Shown here: piece after piece, positions 2,899-25,877 of the stretch | How positions within the stretch are numbered: position 1 is the stretch's first letter | Layout of the letters: every line of letters begins with the position of its first letter | Assembly: GCA_964604905.1 (NCBI GenBank) | Contig: CAZSCC010000566.1 | Coordinates: 682 to 64,681 of the forward strand | Direction: 5' to 3' | Length of the DNA stretch: 64,000 bases | From: an uncultured Planctomycetales bacterium | GTDB taxonomy: Bacteria; Planctomycetota; MHYJ01; JACPRB01 | Notes under the pieces: model-generated | The model's database searches: none | Told to the model about the DNA's origin: nothing | Seen by the model: only the letters and a program-made list of their open reading frames with translations | Made by a program: the position numbers and the translations under genes

Positions 2899-4248
2899 CT
2901 ACCGCTTCTTGAATCGACCCGCCTTCTCGGCCATCTCGCGGACCGCCTGGACCACCGCGTCCTGCGCGGCGGAGGCGAAGATCCCGGGGCCTCCGGAGTA
3001 GACGCCCCGCGTCTCGTAGCCCCCCTCCTCGAGCACCCGCGCCGACGGCAGGTAGCCGAAGACGTCGTTGCAGTAGGCGGCCACCCAGAGGTTGAGCGGC
3101 CCGAGCGCCTTCTCCAGGAAGGTCACGTAGTCCACCACCACTTCCCCCGGGAGGCCCACCATCGTGAGGTCGTCCCCGAACTGCCAGAGCGCCACGGGCG
3201 CGGCGTAGTGCGACGGCACTTTCTCTCCCTTGTCGAGCAGCGCGAGGAGGCCCTTGTACACACCCCGCTTCTCGCCCGGTCCGCTCTTCGCGAGCTTCTC
3301 GAGCTCGTCGCGCGCGGGCGCCGCCTGCAGGGGGAGGTCGACCTTCTGCATCAGGGTCTGGAGCGGCCCGCGCAGCGGCTGGAGCTTCGAGCCCAGGACC
3401 CGGCTCACCTCGCGGCCGAGCGAGGTCCCGTGCTCGCGGGCGATCTCGGCCGTCCCGCGCGGGTGGGGGTTCGCGTCCCCCGCGCAGCCCAGCATCATCA
3501 GCGCCCGGGCGCCCGGGTGGAGCTCCTCCACCTGCCGCTGCGCGTAGCCGCCGTAGTCCCCCGAGAGGAGCATGTTCTTGTCGGTGAGCGTCGTGTTGTG
3601 GCAGGCACAGCCGAAGAGCACCGCCCGGAGCTTGCCGTCCGCGCCGTCCACGCGGAGGACCGGGACGCTCCGGTCGACGAGCCCGCGGGCGTTCACCCCC
3701 AGGATCACCCCCCGCGGCGTGAACTCGCGGCGGTTCATGACGAAGCCCGCCACGCCTGCGCCCCAGGAGAGCCGCGCCGGCTCCAGGTTCGCGAGCGCGG
3801 CCGCGACGAGGTCGACCACCTGGTCCTGCAGCCGGCGCGTGTAGGCGGCGGTCCGCCGCGCATCCTCGGCGGGGAAGTTCTCGCGAGCGTTCTCGTCGAG
3901 GCTCAGCGTCGGGCCGCTGTGGGTGTGGATCGAGTTGAGGAGGATCTGCCCGCGCTTGAGGCCCGATTTCGCGGAGATCCTCTCGCAGATCGCCTCCGCG
4001 ATCGCGGCCCGGAAGCCGATGAGGTCGGAGGTCACGATCACGCCGCGGTTCCCCTGGGCGTCGGCGAACGCCAGCGCCTTCGCGAAGAGGTCGTCGTTCA
4101 CCTTCTCGAAGGGCTTCGTCCGCGACGCGTAGCCCGACATCTGGACCGGCTCGTCGGGCGTGATCTTGACCGACGCGACGCCGACCTTCCAGTCGTCGTC
4201 GAGGGGAGCCGCGAAAACGGCGAACGCCAGGAGGATCCGTCCGATCAT
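2899..4248 (-). CDS. neutral/alkaline non-lysosomal ceramidase-like hydrolase (secreted)
   Basis: Signal peptide MIGRILLAFAVFAAP. N-terminal family pattern KITPDEPVQMSGYASR ... DLFAKALAF ... SIHTHSGP. ATG at 4248 chosen; the track ORF extends to 4347. Confidence 0.75.
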   Translation of the reverse strand: MIGRILLAFAVFAAPLDDDWKVGVASVKITPDEPVQMSGYASRTKPFEKVNDDLFAKALAFADAQGNRGVIVTSDLIGFRAAIAEAICERISAKSGLKRGQILLNSIHTHSGPTLSLDENARENFPAEDARRTAAYTRRLQDQVVDLVAAALANLEPARLSWGAGVAGFVMNRREFTPRGVILGVNARGLVDRSVPVLRVDGADGKLRAVLFGCACHNTTLTDKNMLLSGDYGGYAQRQVEELHPGARALMMLGCAGDANPHPRGTAEIAREHGTSLGREVSRVLGSKLQPLRGPLQTLMQKVDLPLQAAPARDELEKLAKSGPGEKRGVYKGLLALLDKGEKVPSHYAAPVALWQFGDDLTMVGLPGEVVVDYVTFLEKALGPLNLWVAAYCNDVFGYLPSARVLEEGGYETRGVYSGGPGIFASAAQDAVVQAVREMAEKAGRFKKR

Positions 4249-15017: not shown

Positions 15018-16247
15018 ATGGACATCGCTCGAACGGCCGTCTGGCTCCTGGCTCTTTCCGCGTCCGTTCAAGGGCAGGCGGACGAGGGCCGGGATGGGCC
15101 GCTGAAGGGGCTGCCGAGCGCCGCGGGTCCCCATGCGACCGCGATCCGCGACCTGGCCGACAACCGCTGGGTCGATCTCGGGGCGCCGGCGCCCGACCCG
15201 AAGTGGGGCCGCGCGCCCGGCCGGAGTTGGTGCTGCACGATGCCCTTCGCCCCCGGGGCGCGCGGCGCCTTTCTCTACGGAGAGGGGCAGCACGGGTACG
15301 TCAAGCCCGGCGGCCGGTACATGGACGACTGCTGGTTCTACGACCTCAACGCCCACCGGTGGATCTGCGTCTATCCGGGGACGGACGTGAAAAACCCGGG
15401 GCTCAAGCCCGACGCCGACGGTTTTCCCGTCGACGCGGACGGCCGGCGGACGCCGGTCTCGCTCTGCGTCCACGCGTACGATCTCCTGACCTACGACAGC
15501 GACCTCCACAAGCTCATGATCATGGGGACGCACGAATACCATTTCGCGCCCAAGGCGATCAAGGAGCTTCTTCTCCCGACCGGCAAGGTCCCTCCGAGCA
15601 GTCCGTGGTCCTATGACCTCGGGAAGGGGAAATGGGAGGTGCGCGCGGTCGACGGTCCGTCGCCCGAGAAAGCGGAGGGGACCCTGCTCTACATCCCGGG
15701 AATGAAGAAGGCCTTCTACCGGTCGGGCAAGAGCGAGTTCGTGTGGTTCTACGATCCCGCGACGAACGCCTGGACGCGGGTGACGCCGAAGGGGCCGCGG
15801 CCGCCGTTCGGGATCGACCCGACCTCCTGCCTCGACCCCAAGCGCGGGCGGATCTACATCGGCGGGGGAAGCTACCCGTCCGTCGAGGAGGGGAAGAACG
15901 CCCTCTGGATCTACGACCTCAAGAACGACGCGTGGATCGACCCGCAGCCGAAGGGCACGCCGCTCAGCCATTTCGCGACGACCTACGCCGTGATGCGGTA
16001 CGACCCGGTGGCGGACGTCGTGCTCGTGTCCGCGCACGCGGAGAAGAAGCGGGGGATCCACGTCTACGACCCCTCGGCCAACGCGTGGAAGGAGGAGACC
16101 CTCCCGTTCCCGGAGGGTTTCCCGAAGAAGAGCGTCAACGGCTTCTACGATCCCGAGTGGAACGTGCACGTCTTCCACGTCGCGGGGGACAGCCGGGACG
16201 ACGGCCGGGTCTGGGCGTACCGATACCGCCGCGCGGGGCCGCGCTAG
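15018..16247 (+). CDS. secreted Kelch-like beta-propeller protein
   Basis: Signal peptide. Repeated blades of the form ...W..., e.g. NRWVDLG, HRWICVYPG, NAWTRVTP, DAWIDPQP, NAWKEETL. Confidence 0.7.
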   Translation: MDIARTAVWLLALSASVQGQADEGRDGPLKGLPSAAGPHATAIRDLADNRWVDLGAPAPDPKWGRAPGRSWCCTMPFAPGARGAFLYGEGQHGYVKPGGRYMDDCWFYDLNAHRWICVYPGTDVKNPGLKPDADGFPVDADGRRTPVSLCVHAYDLLTYDSDLHKLMIMGTHEYHFAPKAIKELLLPTGKVPPSSPWSYDLGKGKWEVRAVDGPSPEKAEGTLLYIPGMKKAFYRSGKSEFVWFYDPATNAWTRVTPKGPRPPFGIDPTSCLDPKRGRIYIGGGSYPSVEEGKNALWIYDLKNDAWIDPQPKGTPLSHFATTYAVMRYDPVADVVLVSAHAEKKRGIHVYDPSANAWKEETLPFPEGFPKKSVNGFYDPEWNVHVFHVAGDSRDDGRVWAYRYRRAGPR

Positions 16248-16267
16248 GAGGCGAAGCCCGGCTTTCA

Positions 16268-18589
16268 ATGGAACTTCCGGGGCCTCGCCTCCATACTTAC
16301 TTAGTGATGACCCTGAGAGCGGCCTTCGCTTCCGTCCTCCTCCTTCTGGGCGGAGTCGTCTTCCCGCAGCAGAAGCGCCCCGATCCCGTCGACTTCGCCC
16401 GCGACGTCGAGCCCATCCTCAGGGCCTCCTGCGTCAAGTGCCACGGACCCGAAAAGCCGAAAGCTCAGCTTCGCCTCGACTCGAAACCCCACGCCCTGAA
16501 GGGAGGGGTCGGCGGGCCCGCGATCCTCCCGGGGAAGGGCGCCGAAAGCCCGCTCGTGAAGCTGCTCCTCTCCGCCGATCCCGAAGAGCGCATGCCCCGC
16601 AAGGCGGAGCCGCTGCCCCGCGAGAAGATCGACCTCCTCCGCCGCTGGATCGACGAGGGCGCCGCGTGGCCCGACGCCGGCGCCGCACGGCTCGAGAAGC
16701 ACTGGGCGTACGTGAAGCCCGCGCGCCCCCGGACGCCGCCGGCGAAGGACGCGCCCACGCCGATCGACGCCTTCATCCGCGCGCGGCTCGAGAAAGAGGG
16801 CGTCGCCCCGTCTCCCGAGGCGCCGCGCGAGAAGCTCCTGCGGCGGCTCTGGATCGATCTCATCGGCCTCCCGCCCTCGCCCCGGGAGATCGACGACGCC
16901 CGGGACGAGCCGCTCGAGAAGATCGTCGACCGCCTCCTCGACTCGCCCCACTACGGCGAGCGGTGGGCGCGGACCTGGCTCGACCTCGCGCGGTACGCCG
17001 ACACTAACGGCTTCAACTTCGACAGCCCGCGTTCGATGTGGCGCTACCGCGACTGGGTGATCGACGCGCTCAACCGCGATCTGCCCTTCAGCGACTTCAC
17101 GGTCGAGCAGCTGGCCGGCGACCTCCTTCCGGGCGCGACCCTGGAGCAGAAGGTCGCCACCGGCTTCCACCGGAACACCATGATCAACGAGGAGGGCGGC
17201 GTCGATCGCGAGGAGGCGCGCTGGGAGACGCTCCTCGACCGGGTTCACACCACTGCGACCGTCTGGCTCGGCACCACGCTGGCCTGCGCCCAGTGCCACA
17301 ACCACAAGTTCGATCCCTTCACGCAGAGGGAGTTCTACCGCCTGCTCGCCTTCTTCGACCATCAGGACGAAGTGACGCTCGACTTCCTCCCCCCCGAGCA
17401 GGAGGCGCGGCGGAAGGACCTCAAGGGCGAGGTGTCGAGGCTGAACGCCGTCGTGAAGAACGACCGCACCGACCCCGTGACGATGAAGGACGCGAAGGAC
17501 CGGCTCGCGCGCTGCACGAAGGAGCTCAAGGAGATCGAGGGCGTGTCCACCACCTACGTGCTCCGCGAGAAGCAGACGAAGGAGGTCCCCTCCACGCGAC
17601 TCCGCGTGCGCGGGAGCTTCGAGAACGTGGGCGAGAAGGTCTCGGCCGGCGTCCCGGCGTCGCTCCATGCGTGGCCGGAGGGGGCGCCGCTCAACCGCCT
17701 GGGCCTCGCGCGGTGGCTGGTCGGCGACGAGAACCCGCTCGTCGCGCGCGTCGCGGCCAACCGCCTGTGGGACCAGCTGATGGGGCGGCCCCTCGTCGAA
17801 TCGCCCGAGGACTTCGGCACCCAGGGCCAGCCGCCCCTCCACCGCGAGCTCCTGGACTGGCTGGCGGTCGAGTTCATGGAGAACGGGTGGAGCCAGAAGA
17901 AGCTGCTCCGCACGATCGTCCTCTCCGCCACCTACCGGCAGTCGTCCCGCCTGACGCCGGCGCTCCTCGAGAAGGACCCGTACAACCGCCTCCATGCCCG
18001 CGGGCCGCGCCACCGGCTGGACGCCGAGCCCATCCGCGACGTCGCGCTCACGGCGAGCGGGCTCCTCTCGCGCAAGATCGGCGGCCCCAGCGTCTACCCT
18101 GTCCAGGCCGACATGAGCGGCGTGACGCCGATCAACAAGGTGTCGACCCAGTGGACCCCGAGCGCCGGGGAGGACCGCTACCGCCGCGGCCTCTACACCT
18201 ACTGGCGAAGGACCGCGCCCTTCGCGGCATTCGCCACCTTCGACGCGCCGAGCCGCGAGTGCTGCACCGTCAAGCGGCAGCGGACCAACACGCCGCTCCA
18301 GGCCCTGAGCGGCCTGAACGACCCCGGCTTCTTCGACCTGGCGCGCGGCCTCGCCCGTCGCGCGATCGCGGAGGGGGGCGCGGACGACCGATCGCGGATC
18401 GCCTACGCCTTCCGCTGCTGCACCGCGCGGACCCCCGTGAAGGATGAGATCGACCTGCTCGAGAAGGAGCTGGGCCGCGAGCGGGAGCATTACCGGAATG
18501 GAAAGGGGAAGGGCGACGCGGAGCTCTCGGCCTGGGCGATCGTGGCGAACATCCTCCTCAACCTCGACGAGACGATGAGCCAGGAATGA
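16268..18589 (+). CDS. PSCyt1 / DUF1549 / DUF1553 domain protein (planctomycete cytochrome-c-like)
   Basis: [17 protein letters not shown] (PSCyt1 CxxCH), [11 protein letters not shown], and a long DUF1553-type C-terminus. Starts at ATG 16268 or ATG 16307; the track ORF upstream of 16268 overlaps the previous gene. Confidence 0.9.
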
Positions 18590-20004
18590 ACCCCGAAGAT
18601 CTCAAGGCGGTCACGCGGCGCCACTTCTTCTCGAGGAGCGCCTGCGGGATCGGCACGCTCGCGCTGGGTTCGCTCCTCCAGGAGGGCCTCTTCGCGGGGG
18701 ACGAGCGGAATCCGCACCACGCCCCGAAGGCGAAGCGGATCCTCTACCTCTTCATGATGGGCGCCCCCTCGCAGATCGACCTCTTCGATCCGAAGCCGAA
18801 GCTCGAGGAGCTGCACGACAAGCCGATCCCGGAGGAGATGATCAAGGGGCAGCGCTTCGCGTTCATCAAGGGGACGCCGAAGGTGCTGGCGTCCCCCTAC
18901 AAGTTCCAGAGGCACGGCCGGTCGGGCGCGACGATCTCGGAGCTGCTCCCCCACACGGCGTCGATCGTCGACGAGCTCGCGATCGTGCGCTCGATGCACA
19001 CGGACCACTTCAACCACGGACCGGCGCAGATCTACATGAACACGGGCCACCAGATCCCCGGCCGGCCGAGCATGGGGTCGTGGACGACGTACGGCCTGGG
19101 AAGCGAGGGGCGCGACCTGCCGGGCTTCGTCGTGCTCGTCTCGGGGAAGATCGACCCCGGCGCCGGCGCGGCCTGCTGGTCGAGCGGCTTCATCCCGAGC
19201 AGCTACCAGGGCGTCGAATTCCGCTCGAAGGGCGACCCGGTGCTCTCGGTCTCGAACCCGGAAGGGGTCGACCCGGAGGTGCGGCGTCGGTCGATCGACG
19301 CGATCGAGGCGCTCAACCGGAAGCGTCTCGAGGAGACGGGCGACCCCGAGATCGCCACCCGCATCGCGGCGTACGAGATGGCCTACCGGATGCAGATGAG
19401 CGTGCCGGAGCTGGTCGACCTCTCGAAGGAGCCCAAGTGGGTCCACGAGATGTACGGCACGGAGCCCGGGAAGGCGTCGTTCGCGAACAACTGCCTCCTC
19501 GCCCGGCGGCTCCTTGAGCGCGGCACGCGGTTCGTCCAGCTCTATCACCGCGGCTGGGACCATCACGGGACCGACGCGAGCGACGACCTGATGAGCGGCC
19601 TCCCCGCGCTCTGCCGGCAGACCGACCAGGCCACGGCGGCGCTGATCCGGGACCTGAAGGCGCGGGGGCTCCTCGAGGACACGCTGGTGATCTGGGGCGG
19701 CGAGTTCGGGCGGACGCCCATGAACGAGTCGCGCGCCGCCGGGAAGTTCCTCGGTCGCGACCACCACCCGCGCGCGTTCACGGTCTGGCTGGCCGGCGGG
19801 GGCATCAAGCCGGGGATCTCGATCGGCGCGACCGACGAGCTCGGCTACAACGTGGTCGAGGACGCGGTCCACGTCCACGATCTCCACGCGACCGCACTCC
19901 ATCTGATGGGCATCGACCACACGAAGCTGACCTATCGTTTCCAGGGCCGGGACTACCGGCTGACCGACGTGCACGGAAAGGTGGTGGACAAGCTGCTTGC
20001 GTAG
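18586..20004 (+). CDS. DUF1501 domain protein (sulfatase-like fold, Tat signal)
   Basis: Twin-arginine signal [28 protein letters not shown] and GRDHH motifs. ATGA start/stop overlap with the preceding gene. Confidence 0.9.
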
Positions 20005-20593: not shown

Positions 20594-20621
20594 TAAAGTA
20601 ATCCGATTACTTTATCATATC
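20587..20621. terminator. AT-rich perfect palindrome (17-nt arms, 1-nt centre) between convergent genes; candidate bidirectional terminator
   Basis: gatatgataaagtaatc c gattactttatcatatc. Both stop codons (TGA 20591..20593 on the plus strand; TCA 20615..20617, i.e. TGA on the minus strand) lie inside the arms. Confidence 0.5.
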
Positions 20622-21580
20622 TTGTTGGCCTGGGCGAGAGGGGGCTGGCCGCCCAAGACGCGGATCAGGTTCTCGGCCGCCATCGTCGCCTGGCGCTCGA
20701 CGCTCTCGTACGTGCGCGACGCGACGTGGGGAGTGAGGACGACGTTGGGCGCGCCGAGCAGCGGGTTGGTCTTTGCGATCGGCTCGGGCTCGACCACATC
20801 GGCGCCGTAGCCGCCCAGCTGGCCGCTCATGAGCGCCGCCGCGACGTCCGCTTCGTGGATCAGGGCGCCGCGCGCGCAGTTGAGCAGGTAGGCGCCCTTC
20901 TTCATGAGCGCGATCCGCGCCGCGTTCACGAACTCCTTGTTCTCCCCGGTCAGGTTCATGTGGAGCGAGACCACCTCCGAGGCCCGGAGGACGTCCTCGG
21001 CGGCGGTCTTCCGCTCGATCCCGTGCTGCTTCGCGAACGCCTCGTCCCAGTAGAGATCGAAGGCGCAGACCTTCATCTCGAACGCGACCGCCCGCTTGGC
21101 GACCTCCTTGCCGATGCGGCCCAGGCCCAGGATGCCGAACGTCTTCCCGGCGAGCTCGCGGCCCGTCGAGCGCTTCCACTCGCCCTTCTTGACGACCGCG
21201 TCCTGCTGCGGGATGAGGCGGGTCAGGGCGAGCAGCAGCCCGAACGTGTGCTCGGCGACCGTCACGTGGTTCACGCCGGGGCAGTAGGTCACGGGGATCC
21301 GGAGCTCCGTCGCGGCGGCCAGATCGATCTTGTCGACGCCGATCCCGTACTTCGAGAGGACCTTCAGGCGCGGGAGACACTTCTGGAGCACGGGGCGGGT
21401 GAAGGCGTCGTCGCCGCAGACGATGCCGTCGAAGCTCCCGACGAGCTTCAGCATCTCCGGCTCGGGGAGCGGGCCGCGGGCGCGCTCGACCTCGAAGCCG
21501 GCGCCGGCGATCAGGTCGTGGTGCCGTCCGGGGGTGTCCTGGAACGACGTGGTGGTGATCAGGATGCGCGTCTTGTCCAT
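20615..21580 (-). CDS. D-isomer-specific 2-hydroxyacid dehydrogenase (phosphoglycerate dehydrogenase-like)
   Basis: NAD-binding GILGLGRIGKEVAKRA. Catalytic-region pattern NCARGALIHE ... TPHVAS. Confidence 0.9.
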   Translation of the reverse strand: MDKTRILITTTSFQDTPGRHHDLIAGAGFEVERARGPLPEPEMLKLVGSFDGIVCGDDAFTRPVLQKCLPRLKVLSKYGIGVDKIDLAAATELRIPVTYCPGVNHVTVAEHTFGLLLALTRLIPQQDAVVKKGEWKRSTGRELAGKTFGILGLGRIGKEVAKRAVAFEMKVCAFDLYWDEAFAKQHGIERKTAAEDVLRASEVVSLHMNLTGENKEFVNAARIALMKKGAYLLNCARGALIHEADVAAALMSGQLGGYGADVVEPEPIAKTNPLLGAPNVVLTPHVASRTYESVERQATMAAENLIRVLGGQPPLAQANKI

Positions 21581-21608: not shown

Positions 21609-23657
21609 TCAGGCGGACTGTTGCGACATCTCCAGCAGCGCCGCGGTCAGCGCGCCCTTGGCGGTCGCGTTGAGCGGGTCCTTTGCCAGGCGGACCTCCT
21701 TCACGGGGATCGGGAAGTCCAGGTCCTTGAAGATCGTGCGGACGAGCTCGATGAAATTTCCCGCGAGGGCGGTGCCGCCCGAGAAGACCATCGTGATCGG
21801 GTCGGCGAAGGTCGGCATGTTCTCGGCGGCGCGGAATCGCTCGGCGATGTTGCTGAGGTTGTACTGGATCAGGTTGCGGTAGTAGATGGCGATGGCGTCC
21901 TCCTCGCGGGTCCTCGGGTTCATGAGGTCCACGCCCTTCTCCTTGATGAGCGCCGCCCTTGCGGGCTTCATGTTGAGCGTCTGTCCGACGTTGAGGTCGA
22001 TCCAGTCGCCGCTCCGCGCGGTCGAGAAGGTGAGCGCCGGCATCGACATGTACGCCACGCAGACGTTGAACATGCCGCCGCCGCAGGAGACGCCGATGCC
22101 GGTGAAGTCCTCGTCGGCCAGCTCGGAGAACGTCACGGCGTGGCCCTCGATGATGTGGCGCGGCGTGTAGCCCAGCGCCCTGAGCACCGCGTCGAAGAGG
22201 TCGCGGTGGTAGGCGACGGAGAGGTCGGCGTCCACCGGTTCGCCGGGGACCGAGTAGAAGCACGATTCGCCCGTGACCCGCGGCTCGCCCAGGATCGACC
22301 CGATCAGGAGCTTCATGATGGGGAGCGCGTCCGTCTCCTTGGGCGAGATGAGCCCGTCCTTCATGGGCCGGCGCGTGTTGCGGTTGAGGACGTTGGCCAG
22401 CTCGAAGGCCTGCTCGCCCAGGACGTACATGCGGCTGCCCTGCATGAAGTAGGGGACGTTGAGCCGCGTCAGCATCGACTTCGTATAGGCCGTCGTCTCG
22501 ACGTCGATGAACGCGTTCCGGGCGAGGCGGAGCTCGACCTCGCCCTGCACGTTCTGCTCCGCGGCGACGAGGTTGACGGTCCCGATGTCGAGGCCCTTGC
22601 CGGTGAGGAGTTGGCCCGCCTTGGCGGCGGCCTTCCTCCGCTCGAGGAGCACGATCGGGATCCGCTTGGGCCCGCGGGCCTTCTCCTCCTCTTCGGCGCG
22701 GCGCGCGGCCTCCTCGGCTTCGGCGCGGGCCTTCGCCTCCTCCTCGGCACGGATCGCCTCCGCGGCCTCGGTCTCGGCCTGTTCCGCGGCGCGGCGTGCT
22801 TCCGCCGCGGCCTCGGCCTCGGCCCTGGCCTTCGCTTGTTCTTCGGCGCGGCGGGCGGCCACGGCCTCTGCCTCGACCCGCGTCTTCTCTTCTTCCTCGG
22901 CGCGGCGCGCCACGTCGGCTTCGGCCTCGGCCTGTTCCGCGGCGCGGGTCCTCTGCTCCTCCTCCTCGGCACGGCGGTCCCCCGCCTGCTTGGCGTCCTG
23001 CGCCTTCTGCTGCTCGCCCTCGAGCTGGGTCCGGAGCGAGTCCACCTCCTGGAGGGCGTCGTCGAGCTCCTGGGAGGCGCCGGCCTGCTCGTCCGCCTTC
23101 GCCCGCAGGGCCTCGAGCTCGCGCGTGAGCCGGTCGATCTCCGCCTGGAGCCTCTTGATCTCGCTCTGCGCCTTGTCCAGCTCCTCGACCATGCGATCGT
23201 GCTCCTCGCGGAGCCAGACGTTGTCCGCGAGGGACTCCTTGAGCTTGGATTCCGTGGCCTGCTGGCGGTCGATGATGTCCTTGAGCTGGGTCTTGAAGTC
23301 GGACTCGCCCTCCTCCTCGATCTGGCGGCGGAGCTTGAGCTCGTTCTGGAGTTTCTCGATCTGCGCGACGAGGTCGGTCTTGCCGGCCTCGAGCAGGTTC
23401 GCCCGGGAACCGAACTGGTCGCGCTCGGCCATGAGCTTGGAGAGTTGCTTGCGGGAGTCGGCCAGGATCTTGGTGCGCTCCTCCGCGGTCTGCGTGGAGA
23501 TGACCAGGTCGACGGCCCGCTCGATCATCTCCTGGAGCGCGGCCTCGTCGAGCACCTTGACGTTCCGCACCCCCATGCTGGCGAGGTTGGAGACCGTCGT
23601 GTGCTGCGCGCCCTGGTCGATGACCTTCTTGATGTCGAGCCGTCTGTCGTTCGCCAT
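21609..23657 (-). CDS. actin/MreB-fold (ASKHA) ATPase with a long N-terminal coiled-coil / EA-rich extension
   Basis: C-terminal ~330 aa carry GLDIGTVNLV, RPMKDGLI, GIGVSCGGGMFNV, MVFSGGTALAGNF and AKDPLNATAKGA in MreB order. The N-terminal ~350 aa are heptad-like and E/A/R/K/Q-rich. Confidence 0.8.
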   Translation of the reverse strand: MANDRRLDIKKVIDQGAQHTTVSNLASMGVRNVKVLDEAALQEMIERAVDLVISTQTAEERTKILADSRKQLSKLMAERDQFGSRANLLEAGKTDLVAQIEKLQNELKLRRQIEEEGESDFKTQLKDIIDRQQATESKLKESLADNVWLREEHDRMVEELDKAQSEIKRLQAEIDRLTRELEALRAKADEQAGASQELDDALQEVDSLRTQLEGEQQKAQDAKQAGDRRAEEEEQRTRAAEQAEAEADVARRAEEEEKTRVEAEAVAARRAEEQAKARAEAEAAAEARRAAEQAETEAAEAIRAEEEAKARAEAEEAARRAEEEEKARGPKRIPIVLLERRKAAAKAGQLLTGKGLDIGTVNLVAAEQNVQGEVELRLARNAFIDVETTAYTKSMLTRLNVPYFMQGSRMYVLGEQAFELANVLNRNTRRPMKDGLISPKETDALPIMKLLIGSILGEPRVTGESCFYSVPGEPVDADLSVAYHRDLFDAVLRALGYTPRHIIEGHAVTFSELADEDFTGIGVSCGGGMFNVCVAYMSMPALTFSTARSGDWIDLNVGQTLNMKPARAALIKEKGVDLMNPRTREEDAIAIYYRNLIQYNLSNIAERFRAAENMPTFADPITMVFSGGTALAGNFIELVRTIFKDLDFPIPVKEVRLAKDPLNATAKGALTAALLEMSQQSA
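22674..22979 (-). repeat. in-frame imperfect tandem repeats encoding an EA-rich low-complexity tract
   Basis: Protein residues ~227-328: RRAEEEEQRTRAAEQAEAEA / RRAEEEEKTRVEAEA / RRAEEQAKARAEAEA / RRAAEQAETEA / RAEEEAKARAEAEEAARRAEEEEKAR. DNA words such as ctcggcctgttccgcggcgcgg occur twice. Confidence 0.8.
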
Positions 23658-23873
23658 GGATTACTCTCGCAAAGCCAATGGGAGGCTCGATTCTACGGAC
23701 TGGGACGGATGGGTTCAATGTCGATCCGTCGTCGGCGGCGGAATCGCGGCGGGTCGCGGGGCGGGGCGAGTCAAGAGTGCATCGCGGGAGAGATTGACAC
23801 ATAAACAATCGTCCGGTGAATGCCACGGAACGCGATCTCGGCCGCCCCTCTTTCCATAGTAGGAGGGGATCTC

Positions 23874-25877
23874 ATGGCGATGCTGATCGCGGCGCTCCTG
23901 GGGTTCGTCTCTCAGTCGGACTGGGGGAAGCACCCGGAGAACCAGTGGGTGAAACAGAGCCCGCGCGAGGGCGCCCCGGCGCCCAGGCTGGGATGGGAGG
24001 GCAGCGGCGCCTACGATCCCCTCCACCGCACGTGGATCCACCATGCGGGGCACGACGGCATCCCGCAGGGATTCGTCCTCTTCACGTTCAGCCTCGATTC
24101 GGGCGCCTGGCAGCAGCGCTTCCCGGCGAACTCGCCTCCGGGCGTGTGCTGCGTGGACGGGGCGAACGTCTTCGACCCCGCGGCCGGGCGGTTCGTCCGG
24201 TTCCCGGGCGGGAGTCTGGGCCACGGCTACCAGTGGAGCCGCGGCGTGCGGCTCAAGGAGTCGCCCGTCTGGCTCTACGACCCGTCGGCGAACCGCTGGA
24301 CCAATATGCGGCCACCGCCCTACGCCGAGCCCGAACGGCGCCAGGCGACCGGCGGACTCTGTCCCGGAGCGGCCTCCGCGGAGAACCTCGAGCTCTCGAT
24401 CTCCTTCGGCGGGACGGGCTCCGCCGGGGCGAAGAACAACCTCCACGCCTACGACGCGTGGACCAACACGCTCCACCTCCCGAAACCGGCGAATTCCCCG
24501 GACGCGCGGGACGGGATGGGACTCGCCTACGACCCCGGGAACGACGTCCTCGTGATGTTCGGGAGCCAGTACTTGAGCGACGAGAAGACCTGGCTCTACC
24601 GCTTCAAGACGAACGCCTGGGAGTCGCACGACCTGTCGCCCCGCCCGCCCGGAAAGAAGACGGGCACCTACTCGACGATCCCGAAGATGGCGTACGACTC
24701 GGCGAACCGGGTCCTCCTCTGCATCGCATGGCTGGGCGAGAAGGGCGGCCACGAGACGTGGACGTTCGATGCGGCCAAGCTGCAGTGGGCGAAGATGGAT
24801 CCGAAGGCGGACGTCGCGCCTTCGAAGAGCCGCGCGCGGAATCTCGCCTACTCGCGCGACCACAATGTCTTTATCCTCGAGACCACCGCCGTGAGCGGCG
24901 GGCCGGAGGTCTGGACCTACCGAACCCGGAATGCGCCGGCGCCCGTCGCGACGTTGTCGGGCCTCGAGGTCGTCACGGAGAAGGAGAAGGCGGTCCTGGC
25001 CTGGAGGGGCGCGGCCGAAGCGGAGATCCTCCGCGCCGAGCCGGCCGATCCGTGGGCGCTGGACTTTAAGAAGCTCGGGGCGGCGAAGGGCGGGCGGTAC
25101 GAGGACGCCGGCCTCGTGGGCGGGAAGGCGTATGTCTATCTCGTCCGGAGCGGCGGCGCGGTTCTGCGAGGCCGCGCGCAGCCGCGCGTCCCCGAGCCAC
25201 CCACGGTCTCGGTCGTCACGGCCGACCGGGTGGAGGTCCGCTGGAGCGCGCATCCGGCGAAAGACGTCGCCGGCTACAACGTCTACCGCGGCATCGCCGC
25301 TGTCAAGACGGTCATGAAGGGGCAGCCGGCGCCCTGGAAGGACAACGACCCCGAGTACGCCGGGCCGCAGGTGGTCCGCATCGTCGACGTCACCAGGATC
25401 GAGAAGCTGAATGGCGCGCCGCTCGCGGGGACGGCGTTCGAGGACCGGATCGACCTTTCGAAGAAGGGGCCGGAATCGGAAGACTACGCGTGGGCGGTAT
25501 ACGCCTACATCGTCCGTGCGGTGAACCGTCTGGGGACCGAGAGCGGCCCGTCGCCCTATGCGCTTACGATCCCCTCGGAGCCGCCGGGCCTGCTGTGCCG
25601 CGAGAAGGGGACGACGGCGGAGCTCCGCTGGGGCGCGAGCCCCGAGAAGGGGATCCGCGGGTATCACGTCTACAAGCTGGAAGGCGGCGTCTTCGGGATC
25701 AAGCGGGTGACGGAGACGCCGGTCGCCGCGACGACGTTCACCCACGAGGCGGGGAAGGGCGCGACCCGCTACTGGGTGGTCGCGGTCGACGCGCTCGGCC
25801 AGGAGGGCCAACCGTCGTCGCCCGCCTGGTTCGGCCAGTCGTACAAGGGCTTCTTCGAGGGCGAGTGGCACCCCTGA
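23874..25877 (+). CDS. Kelch-like beta-propeller plus fibronectin-III-like domains, membrane-anchored or secreted
   Basis: AGGAGGGG RBS precedes the ATG at 23874. N-terminal hydrophobic segment MAMLIAALLGFV. Propeller blades (NRWTNMRPP, NAWESHDL, LQWAKMDP) followed by two FN3-like segments (VEVRWSAHPAKDVAGYNVYR; AELRWGASPEKGIRGYHVYK). Confidence 0.8.
   Translation: MAMLIAALLGFVSQSDWGKHPENQWVKQSPREGAPAPRLGWEGSGAYDPLHRTWIHHAGHDGIPQGFVLFTFSLDSGAWQQRFPANSPPGVCCVDGANVFDPAAGRFVRFPGGSLGHGYQWSRGVRLKESPVWLYDPSANRWTNMRPPPYAEPERRQATGGLCPGAASAENLELSISFGGTGSAGAKNNLHAYDAWTNTLHLPKPANSPDARDGMGLAYDPGNDVLVMFGSQYLSDEKTWLYRFKTNAWESHDLSPRPPGKKTGTYSTIPKMAYDSANRVLLCIAWLGEKGGHETWTFDAAKLQWAKMDPKADVAPSKSRARNLAYSRDHNVFILETTAVSGGPEVWTYRTRNAPAPVATLSGLEVVTEKEKAVLAWRGAAEAEILRAEPADPWALDFKKLGAAKGGRYEDAGLVGGKAYVYLVRSGGAVLRGRAQPRVPEPPTVSVVTADRVEVRWSAHPAKDVAGYNVYRGIAAVKTVMKGQPAPWKDNDPEYAGPQVVRIVDVTRIEKLNGAPLAGTAFEDRIDLSKKGPESEDYAWAVYAYIVRAVNRLGTESGPSPYALTIPSEPPGLLCREKGTTAELRWGASPEKGIRGYHVYKLEGGVFGIKRVTETPVAATTFTHEAGKGATRYWVVAVDALGQEGQPSSPAWFGQSYKGFFEGEWHP

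What the first reader, a model, noticed from the sequence alone, without database searches (positions are those of the whole stretch)
21609..23657. MreB/actin-fold ATPase fused to a ~350-aa coiled-coil and EA-rich repeat N-terminus
Seen in sequence: residues ~350-682 carry the actin/ASKHA motifs in MreB order. These are phosphate-1 GLDIGTVNLV, RPMKDGLI (cf. MreB RPLxDGVI), phosphate-2 GIGVSCGGGMFNV, adenosine motif MVFSGGTALAGNF, and the C-terminal AKDPLNATAKGA (cf. MreB AEDPLxxVAxG). The usual Asp of the DxGGG phosphate-2 motif is replaced (V-S-C-G-G-G). Residues 1-350 form a charged helical region with heptad-like character. It includes an in-frame imperfect repeat tract (22674..22979; RRAEEEE[QK].TR.., AEQAE[AT]EA). 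Established knowledge: canonical MreB, ParM, MamK and FtsA lack such an N-terminal coiled-coil extension. Inference: this could be a cytoskeletal or scaffold protein in which a filament-forming actin fold is tethered to, or regulated by, a long coiled coil. That would be of interest in a lineage with unusual cell biology. It is followed after 28 nt by a 2-hydroxyacid dehydrogenase gene on the same strand.
Basis: partly seen in the sequence, partly recalled or inferred. Interest (0 to 1): 0.7.

Follow-up and report, generated by a model that had tools for sequence, protein, structure and literature searches.

The report
Actin-like protein fused to its partner
This planctomycete gene encodes a volactin-family bacterial actin joined in one chain to a long helical stalk protein that most related bacteria encode as a separate gene just upstream, pointing to an undescribed actin-plus-partner cytoskeletal system in a phylum that lacks FtsZ.

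Summary
The C-terminal 320 aa are not MreB. They match Pfam Volactin (PF25216) at 266 bits against a cutoff of 35. The nearest solved relative is MamK, and the predicted fold matches MreB, MamK and BeeR filaments. Ser in place of the phosphate-2 Asp is a trait of the whole family. The N-terminal half has four parts: a conserved unannotated ~110-aa module, a true heptad coiled coil (aa 57-222), an Ala/Glu/Arg repeat tract that scores as a charged single helix rather than a coiled coil, and a disordered linker. The main result is that in about 38 related Planctomycetota loci the module-plus-coiled-coil protein and the actin are separate adjacent genes, often followed by a second actin gene. In the window and its close relatives they are fused, and the same MAGs hold both forms. 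The fusion is therefore real, derived, and marks the stalk protein as the actin's partner. All relatives come from uncultured Planctomycetota; I found no paper describing this. Filament formation and cellular role are inferred, not shown. I rate it a new variant of a known kind, of moderately high interest.

The parts
21609..23657 (-). Complete CDS of 682 aa plus stop codon: a fusion of the partner module, helical stalk and volactin-family actin domain
   Evidence: ORF. Full-length homologues at 55-67% identity, P0002-P0081.
23690..23718 (-). Sigma-70-like promoter match (TTGAAC-17-TAGAAT, 9 of 12), 33 nt upstream of the ATG
   Evidence: 3 sites in the region against 0.1 expected from shuffles. 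This is a consensus match only.
23328..23657 (-). N-terminal module, aa 1-110 (conserved core aa 25-110; invariant L25, G29, V33, V35, L36, A48). Unannotated domain shared with the separately encoded partner proteins.
   Evidence: Alignments A1, A3 and A4. No Pfam or NCBIfam hit. No PDB sequence or fold match. AF2 predicts short helices, an extended segment at aa 28-37, then a long helix.
22992..23327 (-). Heptad coiled-coil stalk, aa 111-222 (the heptad signal starts at about aa 57, inside the module)
   Evidence: Excess of hydrophobic residues at a/d positions, z = 5.8 against shuffles. AF2 predicts continuous helices at 94-188 and 195-322.
22683..22991 (-). Ala/Glu/Arg-rich imperfect tandem-repeat tract, aa 223-325 (A 35%, E 31%, R 16%). 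Charged single-helix-like spacer, hypervariable among homologues.
   Evidence: Composition. No heptad signal (z = 0.2) and charge pairing z = 5.6. TRF period 54 nt. Mean pairwise identity 0.29, with many indels.
22590..22682 (-). Basic, disordered linker, aa 326-356, containing the short motif RIPIVLLE (22641-22664) that recurs in many of the fused homologues aligned
   Evidence: pLDDT 30-42. Motif visible in alignment A1. Coordinates.
21612..22589 (-). Volactin-family actin-fold domain, aa 357-682
   Evidence: PF25216, 266 bits, E 6.8e-79, model positions 3-321 of 321. AF2 fold. Foldseek hits to MreB, MamK and BeeR with target TM-score 0.64-0.66. Mean pairwise identity 0.81 among fused homologues.
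22566..22595 (-). Phosphate-1 loop GLDIGTVNLV (D357, G359, T360)
22134..22154 (-). IIEGHAV, containing Glu504. This Glu is invariant across the whole family and aligns with the Glu of the SEP segment of MamK.
   Evidence: Invariant column E162 of A2. Profile alignment to MamK.
22062..22100 (-). Phosphate-2 loop GIGVSCGGGMFNV. Ser524 stands where MamK, MreB and ParM have Asp, and Met529 where they have Thr.
   Evidence: Alignment to MamK 'VDIGAGTTD'. The same Ser-type loop occurs in Haloarcula. Inteins are inserted exactly here in other family members.
21753..21791 (-). Adenosine-binding motif MVFSGGTALAGNF (G627, G628)
20615..21580 (-). Downstream D-2-hydroxyacid dehydrogenase. Probably co-transcribed (28-nt gap, no terminator-like site), but not a conserved neighbour and not part of the system.
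   Evidence: Absent next to homologues in L001 and L002.

Best explanation
The gene encodes a volactin-family bacterial actin (closest solved relative MamK) that is covalently fused to its own partner protein. Shown: the partner consists of a conserved ~110-aa N-terminal head module followed by a coiled coil. In most related Planctomycetota it is a separate gene immediately upstream of the actin gene. In one shallow sub-lineage a duplicated copy of the pair became a single ORF, which is the form in the window. Inferred mechanism: the actin domain binds ATP and polymerises into filaments, as volactin does in Haloferax and MamK does in magnetotactic bacteria. Each protomer then carries a helical stalk of about 265 helical residues: a dimerising heptad coiled coil, then a rigid charged Ala/Glu/Arg helix of variable length, joined to the actin by a flexible linker of about 30 aa. 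The stalk holds the head module away from the filament. There it can pair with other stalks to bundle or cross-link filaments, or bind a fixed cellular target or cargo. The fusion makes an interaction that is normally non-covalent permanent, at one partner per actin subunit.
For: Family and fold. PF25216 scores 266 bits against a cutoff of 35 over the whole model. The window domain is 37% identical (E 2e-80) to a Haloarcula protein that scores 447 bits on PF25216. A profile search of PDB sequences ranks MamK 5e-16, BeeR 1e-8, MreB 8e-8 and FtsA 4e-5. The AF2 model has an actin fold at pLDDT 75-95. Foldseek's top 50 hits are nearly all filament-forming actins. The nucleotide-site residues D357, E504, G526, G528, G627 and G628 are conserved across 43 diverse family members. 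The actin domain is 81% identical on average among fused homologues, against 29-44% for the stalk. Volactin forms dynamic filaments in vivo (PMC10869688).

Fusion of a partner. In L010 the 302-aa module-plus-coiled-coil protein, a 338-aa actin (76% identical to the window domain) and a 636-aa second actin are three consecutive co-oriented genes. Stop-to-stop ORF analysis finds the pair fused in 7 genome loci and separate in about 38. The module gene is present in 19 of 19 operon-type loci. The module is clearly homologous between fused and separate forms. Five MAGs contain both forms. The fused actins lie in one shallow clade with the split actins of the same MAGs, nested among split forms.

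Stalk anatomy. Heptad signal z = 5.8 for aa 57-222. No heptad signal but charge-pair z = 5.6 for aa 223-325. N-terminal extension length varies from 289 to 420 aa among 34 fused homologues. An unrelated E/Q/A/R-rich helical extension precedes the actin domain in P0097.
Against: Nothing here tests polymerisation, ATPase activity or binding between the stalk protein and the actin. The phosphate-2 Asp and Thr are replaced by Ser and Met, so the chemistry of the nucleotide site differs from that of characterised actins. The head module has no recognisable fold or known ligand. The AF2 model gives no confident contact between the N-terminal half and the actin domain (overall pTM 0.46). A bulky ~350-aa appendage on every subunit could hinder filament assembly rather than decorate the filament. 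The neighbour-joining tree has no support values, and the fused forms are paraphyletic in it.
Confidence: 0.6

Rival explanations
1. The actin-fold domain does not form cytomotive filaments. Instead it acts as a nucleotide-gated adaptor or short oligomer, like FtsA or PilM, or as a chaperone-like ASKHA protein like EutJ. The coiled coil would then be a scaffold recruiting other proteins.
For: FtsA, PilM and EutJ are among the Foldseek hits. There are sub-threshold Pfam FtsA matches in close relatives. NCBI names some homologues 'cell division protein FtsA'. The altered phosphate-2 loop could reduce hydrolysis.
Against: The best sequence and structure matches are MamK, MreB and BeeR over the whole domain, with target TM-score 0.64-0.66. 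The name-giving family member forms dynamic filaments. No FtsA-type 1C subdomain insertion appears in the model or alignments, and FtsA matches cover only part of the domain (about 208-231 aligned columns). The very high conservation of the actin domain fits a polymer-forming protein.
Confidence: 0.17
2. It is a DNA or cargo segregation machine of the ParM or salactin type. The head module would bind a centromere-like site, a nucleoid protein or an organelle, and the growing filament would push or pull that cargo.
For: Actin-plus-adaptor gene pairs are the classic layout of ParMRC-type systems (established knowledge). The haloarchaeal actin salactin aids DNA partitioning (PMC10869688). The split operon lies next to holA and hflX in many loci. 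Family members occur in two huge phage genomes.
Against: The window context is chromosomal and metabolic, with no plasmid or phage genes. No bacterial plasmid carries a homologue. The head module and the N-terminal domain of the second actin show no DNA-binding signature in Pfam or PDB profile searches. The fused gene has no conserved neighbours.
Confidence: 0.15
3. The fusion is an artefact: an assembly chimera, or a sequencing error that removed the stop codon between two genes.
For: The two halves are separate genes in most relatives.
Against: About 80 independently assembled proteins from many samples and pipelines have the same continuous architecture. Seven genome loci do as well. The sequence aligns through the junction, including the shared RIPIVLLE-like motif and GKGLDIGT. 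Split and fused versions coexist in the same MAGs as distinct paralogues with different head-module sequences (30-44% against 47-59% identity to the window).
Confidence: 0.02
4. The N-terminal half is a non-specific low-complexity extension with no dedicated function.
For: The aa 223-325 tract is low-complexity, repetitive and poorly conserved.
Against: The head module is 64% identical on average among fused homologues and has invariant residues shared with distant separately encoded proteins. The module gene is present in 19 of 19 operon-type loci.
Confidence: 0.04

Closest known systems
Volactin (VolA, HVO_2015) of Haloferax volcanii; Pfam PF25216
   Same: Same Pfam family, well above the gathering score. 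About 37% identity to a haloarchaeal core member. Same Ser-type phosphate-2 loop. Same actin fold.
   Different: Volactin is a stand-alone protein of about 340 aa from an archaeon. Here a ~350-aa partner is fused to the N-terminus and the host is a bacterium. The Haloarcula homologue's upstream neighbour is an unrelated membrane protein, DUF7139. The disk-shape role of volactin cannot be carried over.
MamK (magnetosome actin)
   Same: Nearest solved structure by sequence profile (E 5e-16) and a good fold match (5ljv, target TM-score 0.64). MamK works with separate partner proteins. A 2025 paper title and abstract describe a network of coiled-coil and actin-like proteins in magnetosome positioning (PMC12748827, seen only, not read).
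   Different: NCBIfam MamK scores 15 bits against a cutoff of 400. There is no magnetosome gene context. The phosphate-2 Asp and Thr are replaced. The partner is fused.
MreB
   Different: No MreB_Mbl Pfam match at E <= 10. No mreC or mreD nearby. Different phosphate-2 loop.
ParM/ParR-type actin-plus-adaptor pairs
   Same: The logic of an actin gene paired with a dedicated adaptor gene. The fusion here argues for a physical partnership of that kind.
   Different: No sequence relationship to ParR. Chromosomal rather than plasmid location. The adaptor gene lies upstream and encodes a long coiled coil. Cargo is unknown.
Saltatorellin (MamK-like actin of Saltatorellus, bioRxiv 10.1101/817700)
   Same: A second, MamK-like actin in a deep-branching planctomycete-related lineage with about 70% GC. 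It was reported to form filaments when expressed in E. coli.
   Different: No N-terminal partner or fusion is mentioned in the text I read. No Saltatorellus record appeared among the 80 loci kept from the genome scan.
ER/K single alpha-helix spacers (for example in myosin VI and X)
   Same: The aa 223-325 tract has few hydrophobic residues, no heptad pattern, dense i/i+3 and i/i+4 opposite-charge pairs and variable length.
   Different: It is unusually Ala-rich (35%), with Arg and little Lys. It was scored only with my own simple measure, not a validated predictor.

Membership tests
Volactin family (Pfam PF25216) | Match to the family HMM above the gathering score across the whole model | tested here: met
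   266.1 bits against a cutoff of 35, E 6.8e-79, model positions 3-321 of 321, aa 354-673.
Volactin family (Pfam PF25216) | Actin/ASKHA fold | tested here: met
   The AF2 model has pLDDT 75-95 over most of aa 357-680. Foldseek probability is 1.00 to MreB, MamK, BeeR and actin.
Volactin family (Pfam PF25216) | Family-typical nucleotide-site motifs: D-x-G-T phosphate-1, invariant Glu, S-x-G-x-G-M phosphate-2, G-G adenosine loop | tested here: met
   D357/G359/T360, E504, S524-M529 and G627/G628 match conserved columns of A2 and the Haloarcula core member.
Volactin family (Pfam PF25216) | Dynamic polymerisation into filaments in vivo | not testable with these tools
   Shown only for H. volcanii volactin (PMC10869688).
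Volactin family (Pfam PF25216) | Stand-alone single-domain architecture of about 330-345 aa | tested here: not met
   Here 356 aa precede the domain. The wider family is architecturally diverse, so this is a variant rather than a reason for exclusion.
MreB (Pfam PF06723 MreB_Mbl) | Match to the MreB_Mbl HMM at the gathering score | tested here: not met
   No hit at E <= 10.
MreB (Pfam PF06723 MreB_Mbl) | Canonical D-x-G-G-G-T phosphate-2 loop | tested here: not met
   The loop is S-C-G-G-G-M.
MreB (Pfam PF06723 MreB_Mbl) | Linkage with mreC/mreD | tested here: not met
   The neighbours are a dehydrogenase, a Kelch protein, PIG-L and Gnd.
MamK (NCBIfam NF040964) | Score above the family cutoff | tested here: not met
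   15.1 bits against a cutoff of 400. Remote homology only.
MamK (NCBIfam NF040964) | Magnetosome gene-cluster context | tested here: not met
   No mam genes among the neighbours scanned.
ParM/Alp plasmid-segregation actins | Encoded on a plasmid or phage with an adjacent small DNA-binding adaptor and centromere | tested here: not met
   Chromosomal housekeeping context. No bacterial plasmid homologue. No DNA-binding signature in the partner.
FtsA | FtsA Pfam match, 1C subdomain and C-terminal membrane-targeting helix | tested here: not met
   No FtsA hit for the window protein at E <= 10. Foldseek alignments to FtsA cover only about 208-231 columns. The protein ends right after the actin fold.
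Non-filament ASKHA (sugar kinases, Hsp70) | Best profile or fold matches fall in these families | tested here: not met
   None among the Pfam, NCBIfam or PDB hits, nor in the Foldseek top 50.
Two-stranded coiled coil | Heptad periodicity of hydrophobic residues in a long helix | tested here: met
   aa 57-222: z = 5.8, with 0 of 500 shuffles reaching the observed value. Long AF2 helices. Oligomeric state was not tested.
ER/K-type single alpha-helix | Charged helix with dense i/i+4 salt-bridge pairs and no hydrophobic seam | tested here: inconclusive
   aa 223-325: charge-pair z = 5.6, heptad z = 0.2, 0-11% hydrophobic. The scoring is my own simple measure and the composition is atypically Ala-rich.

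The most novel reading that the evidence does not exclude
The window gene is one paralogue of a vertically inherited, undescribed actin cytoskeleton of uncultured Planctomycetota. The system comprises a head-module/coiled-coil partner and two volactin-like actins, encoded beside hflX and holA. It could supply the filament system for division, budding or shape in a phylum that lost FtsZ and often MreB. The natural fusion shows directly which protein binds the actin.
Probability: 0.25. Interest if true: 0.85.

Novelty: new variant of a known kind. Interest (0 to 1): 0.62.

Why it matters
Planctomycetota divide without FtsZ, and many lack MreB (review PMC12673574). What organises their division and shape is an open question. 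This work finds a strongly conserved actin-family protein and a dedicated, unannotated partner across many uncultured Planctomycetota. A natural gene fusion argues that the two proteins work together. That yields concrete, testable candidates for a bacterial actin-plus-adaptor system. It also extends volactin, so far characterised only in one haloarchaeon, to bacteria, DPANN archaea and huge phages. Finally, the Ser-type phosphate-2 loop, which inteins target in some members, is a distinctive nucleotide site that merits biochemical study.

Tried and rejected
- **MreB, FtsA, ParM or sugar-kinase membership:** no Pfam or NCBIfam support.
- **Assembly-error explanation:** rejected, because the fusion recurs in about 80 assemblies and coexists with split paralogues.
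- **Conserved neighbours of the fused gene:** none found. The dehydrogenase neighbour is specific to the window.
- **Identity of the head module:** nothing in Pfam or NCBIfam, in a PDB profile search (best E 0.13, generic coiled coils) or in Foldseek on a dedicated AF2 model (all E > 4).
- **Head-module profile search of the 5.8-billion-protein database:** only 47 hits, mostly short fragments, all unnamed, so the partner family's size is not established.
- **My impression that the second actin's N-terminal domain looks like a ParB helix-turn-helix:** no Pfam hit and no PDB profile hit at E <= 10. Dropped.
- **Haloarcula upstream gene as a possible homologue of the partner:** it is an unrelated DUF7139 membrane protein.
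- **Strain-level repeat copy number:** not testable. The window protein's 90% cluster has one member. The closest other sequence is a 61-aa fragment at 87% identity (P0405).
- **Rfam scan of the window:** no RNA genes, so no rRNA-based taxonomy.
- **Link to saltatorellin:** its sequence was not obtainable, so this is untested.
Full report
**Observation.** The minus-strand ORF at 21609..23657 encodes 682 aa. The repeat tract is detected by Tandem Repeats Finder; the best row has period 54 nt, 2.7 copies and 76% matches. The downstream gene is a D-2-hydroxyacid dehydrogenase 28 nt away. A sigma-70-like promoter match lies 33 nt upstream of the ATG, and there is no terminator-like site before the dehydrogenase gene. 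The window is about 69% GC. It carries the PSCyt1/PSCyt2/PSD1 and DUF1501 genes characteristic of Planctomycetota.

**The C-terminal domain.** Residues 354-673 match Pfam Volactin (PF25216) over the whole model, with 266 bits against a cutoff of 35. No MreB_Mbl, FtsA, actin or ParM model matches at E <= 10. NCBIfam and PDB single-sequence searches give only weak MamK hits.

A profile of 43 diverse family members ranks MamK at 5e-16, BeeR at 1e-8, MreB at 8e-8 and FtsA at 4e-5 among solved structures. The AlphaFold model has a confident actin fold at aa 357-680. Foldseek returns MreB, MamK, FtsA, BeeR, actin, PilM and EutJ, with target TM-scores up to 0.66. No sugar kinase or Hsp70 is in the top 50.

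The domain is 37% identical (E 2e-80) to a Haloarcula marismortui protein that scores 447 bits on PF25216. Volactin itself is a Haloferax volcanii actin that forms dynamic filaments and promotes the rod-to-disk transition (PMC10869688).

The alignment to MamK shows S-x-G-x-G-M opposite D-I-G-A-G-T. It is a family-wide trait, present in 90% or more of diverse members and in the haloarchaeal protein. An invariant Glu (E504), the phosphate-1 Asp and the adenosine Gly-Gly are all retained.

**The N-terminal half.** Alignment of 34 full-length homologues, composition and periodicity tests and structure prediction divide it into four parts.
- **aa 1-110:** a conserved head module. The core is aa 25-110, with 64% mean pairwise identity, and includes the invariant G29-x-x-x-V33-K-V-L36 in a non-helical segment flanked by helices.
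- **aa 57-222:** a helix with significant heptad periodicity (z = 5.8), that is, a true coiled coil.
- **aa 223-325:** the Ala/Glu/Arg-rich repeat tract (A 35%, E 31%, R 16%). It has no heptad signal (z = 0.2) but dense i/i+3 and i/i+4 opposite-charge pairs (z = 5.6). It is best read as a rigid charged single helix. It is the least conserved and most length-variable part (29% identity). The whole extension ranges from 289 to 420 aa among homologues.
- **aa 326-356:** a disordered basic linker with a short RIPIVLLE-type motif.

The head module has no Pfam, NCBIfam, PDB-sequence or fold match.

**The fusion.** The genome scan returned 79 loci, almost all labelled as Planctomycetota MAGs and none from a cultured isolate. 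In L010 the window protein's two halves are separate, adjacent, co-oriented genes:
- a 302-aa protein with the head module plus coiled coil;
- a 338-aa stand-alone volactin-family actin, 76% identical to the window domain;
- a 636-aa second actin with its own ~165-aa N-terminal domain and a Pro-rich tail.

Stop-to-stop ORF analysis of all loci shows the module and actin in one ORF in 7 loci (L001-L006, L014). They are in separate ORFs in about 38 loci. All 19 operon-type loci carry the module gene about 1.1 kb upstream of the first actin gene. The module is unmistakably homologous between fused and separate proteins.

Five MAGs contain both a fused locus and a split operon. In a neighbour-joining tree of 105 actin domains, the fused forms fall in one shallow clade. 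They share it with the split first actins of those same MAGs, and the clade is nested within split forms (no support values). The fusion is therefore genuine, since about 80 independent assemblies share it. It is also derived, having arisen from a duplicated gene pair. A natural fusion of adjacent, co-conserved genes is classic evidence that the two products act together.

**Wider family and context.** An exhaustive search found 1136 clusters at 50% identity related to the actin domain, 358 of them at E <= 1e-30. A profile search of the named database found at least 1841 clusters at 90% identity. Their names are Planctomycetota, Omnitrophota and Nanoarchaeota, and most are stand-alone proteins of 326-420 aa. 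Well-populated clusters are all from MAGs. One NCBI record already names a planctomycete homologue "disk-shape morphogenesis protein volactin".

The fused gene has no conserved neighbours. The split operon is often flanked by hflX and holA. That fits a chromosomal housekeeping role rather than a mobile element. No bacterial plasmid carries a homologue.

**Mechanism.** Shown here:
- membership of the volactin family;
- an actin fold with an intact but unusual nucleotide site;
- very strong constraint on the actin domain (81% identity);
- a partner protein that is separately encoded in relatives and fused here;
- the segmental anatomy of the stalk.

Inferred: the actin domain polymerises in a nucleotide-dependent way. 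The stalk dimerises through its heptad region. The charged helix sets a variable distance. The head module binds another stalk, a fixed structure or a cargo, so that filaments are bundled, anchored or loaded. I put 0.6 on this reading.

The main rivals are a non-polymerising FtsA/PilM-like adaptor (0.17) and a ParM- or salactin-like segregation machine (0.15). An artefact (0.02) and a functionless extension (0.04) are effectively excluded.

**Comparison and novelty.** The actin domain is a member of a known, recently defined family. The closest mechanistic analogues are MamK with its partners and ParM with ParR. What appears new is:
- the conserved head-module/coiled-coil partner;
- its operon with two volactin-like actins in Planctomycetota;
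- its fusion to the actin in the window's lineage.

Full-text searches for volactin, planctomycete actin-like proteins, Uabimicrobium actin and saltatorellin found no description of these. Saltatorellin, a MamK-like filament-former from the ~70% GC Saltatorellus clade, might be related, but I could not test this.

**Limits.**
- There is no experimental evidence.
- The taxonomy of the window and of the relatives goes no deeper than phylum.
- The genome scan depended on two exact peptide patterns and kept 80 of 138 matches, so absence from cultured planctomycetes is not proven.
- The tree is a quick distance tree.
- The coiled-coil and single-helix calls rest on simple scores of my own.

Noticed in passing
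Family members P0095 (698 aa) and P0163 (702 aa); about 10 similar representatives: An intein (Intein_splicing plus LAGLIDADG, about 370 aa) is inserted exactly between the Ser and Cys of the S-C-G-G-G phosphate-2 loop of the volactin domain. Inteins usually sit in functionally critical sites.
   Followed up: partly
L007-L013, L015-L024, L026, L028, L036, L073, L075, L080 (for example L010:7141-9051): A second volactin-family actin gene follows the first. It has a conserved ~165-aa N-terminal domain of unknown type (no Pfam or PDB match) and a Pro-rich tail ending in an acidic-hydrophobic motif (DIDDIPLIS; EDFPLFS in P0086). From memory, that motif resembles the FtsZ C-terminal peptide; I did not verify this.
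   Followed up: partly
P0092 (1160 aa, NCBI MBI4566665.1, Planctomycetes MAG): A volactin domain fused to Wzz, GNVR and a ParA/MinD-like P-loop, which is the layout of a polysaccharide co-polymerase/tyrosine kinase. This suggests a link between this actin family and envelope polysaccharide export.
   Followed up: partly
P0082, P0083, P0085 (727-750 aa): Proteins with two volactin domains in tandem. The first copy is degenerate (for example GIFCAGGAFD in place of GISCGGGMFN).
   Followed up: no
Phage records LR745208.1 (485 kb; 337462-338382) and LR756511.1 (595 kb; 548834-549790): Two huge uncultured phage genomes encode volactin-family proteins, 40.6% and 31.0% identical to the window domain.
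   Followed up: no
L082 (Haloarcula marismortui pNG700, NC_006395.1) 1920-2828 and 2995-4023: The haloarchaeal volactin homologue lies directly downstream of a co-oriented DUF7139 membrane protein with an acidic tail. This could be a membrane anchor, given that volactin filament tips touch the membrane in H. volcanii.
   Followed up: partly
P0097 (908 aa; Planctomycetes MAG MBP9891465.1): A different ~570-aa acidic and E/Q/A/R-rich helical N-terminal extension, unrelated in sequence to the window's, precedes a volactin domain. Long charged helical extensions seem to have been acquired more than once in this family.
   Followed up: no
Type B loci, for example L024:4069-4962 (+) and L010:2046-3020 (-): The split operon is flanked upstream by an HflX-type GTPase gene in 14 of 19 loci and by DNA polymerase III delta (holA) in 11 of 19.
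   Followed up: partly
window 15632-20004 (+): A PSCyt1/PSCyt2/PSD1 protein (985 aa) is followed by a DUF1501 protein (472 aa). This is the typical planctomycete gene pair and supports the phylum assignment of the window.
   Followed up: no
window 23820-25877 (+): A 685-aa Kelch/beta-propeller protein is transcribed divergently from the actin gene, separated by a 162-bp intergenic region. It is not seen next to the two homologues checked.
   Followed up: no
window 1-64000: No Rfam family reaches its gathering score anywhere in the 64-kb window.
   Followed up: yes
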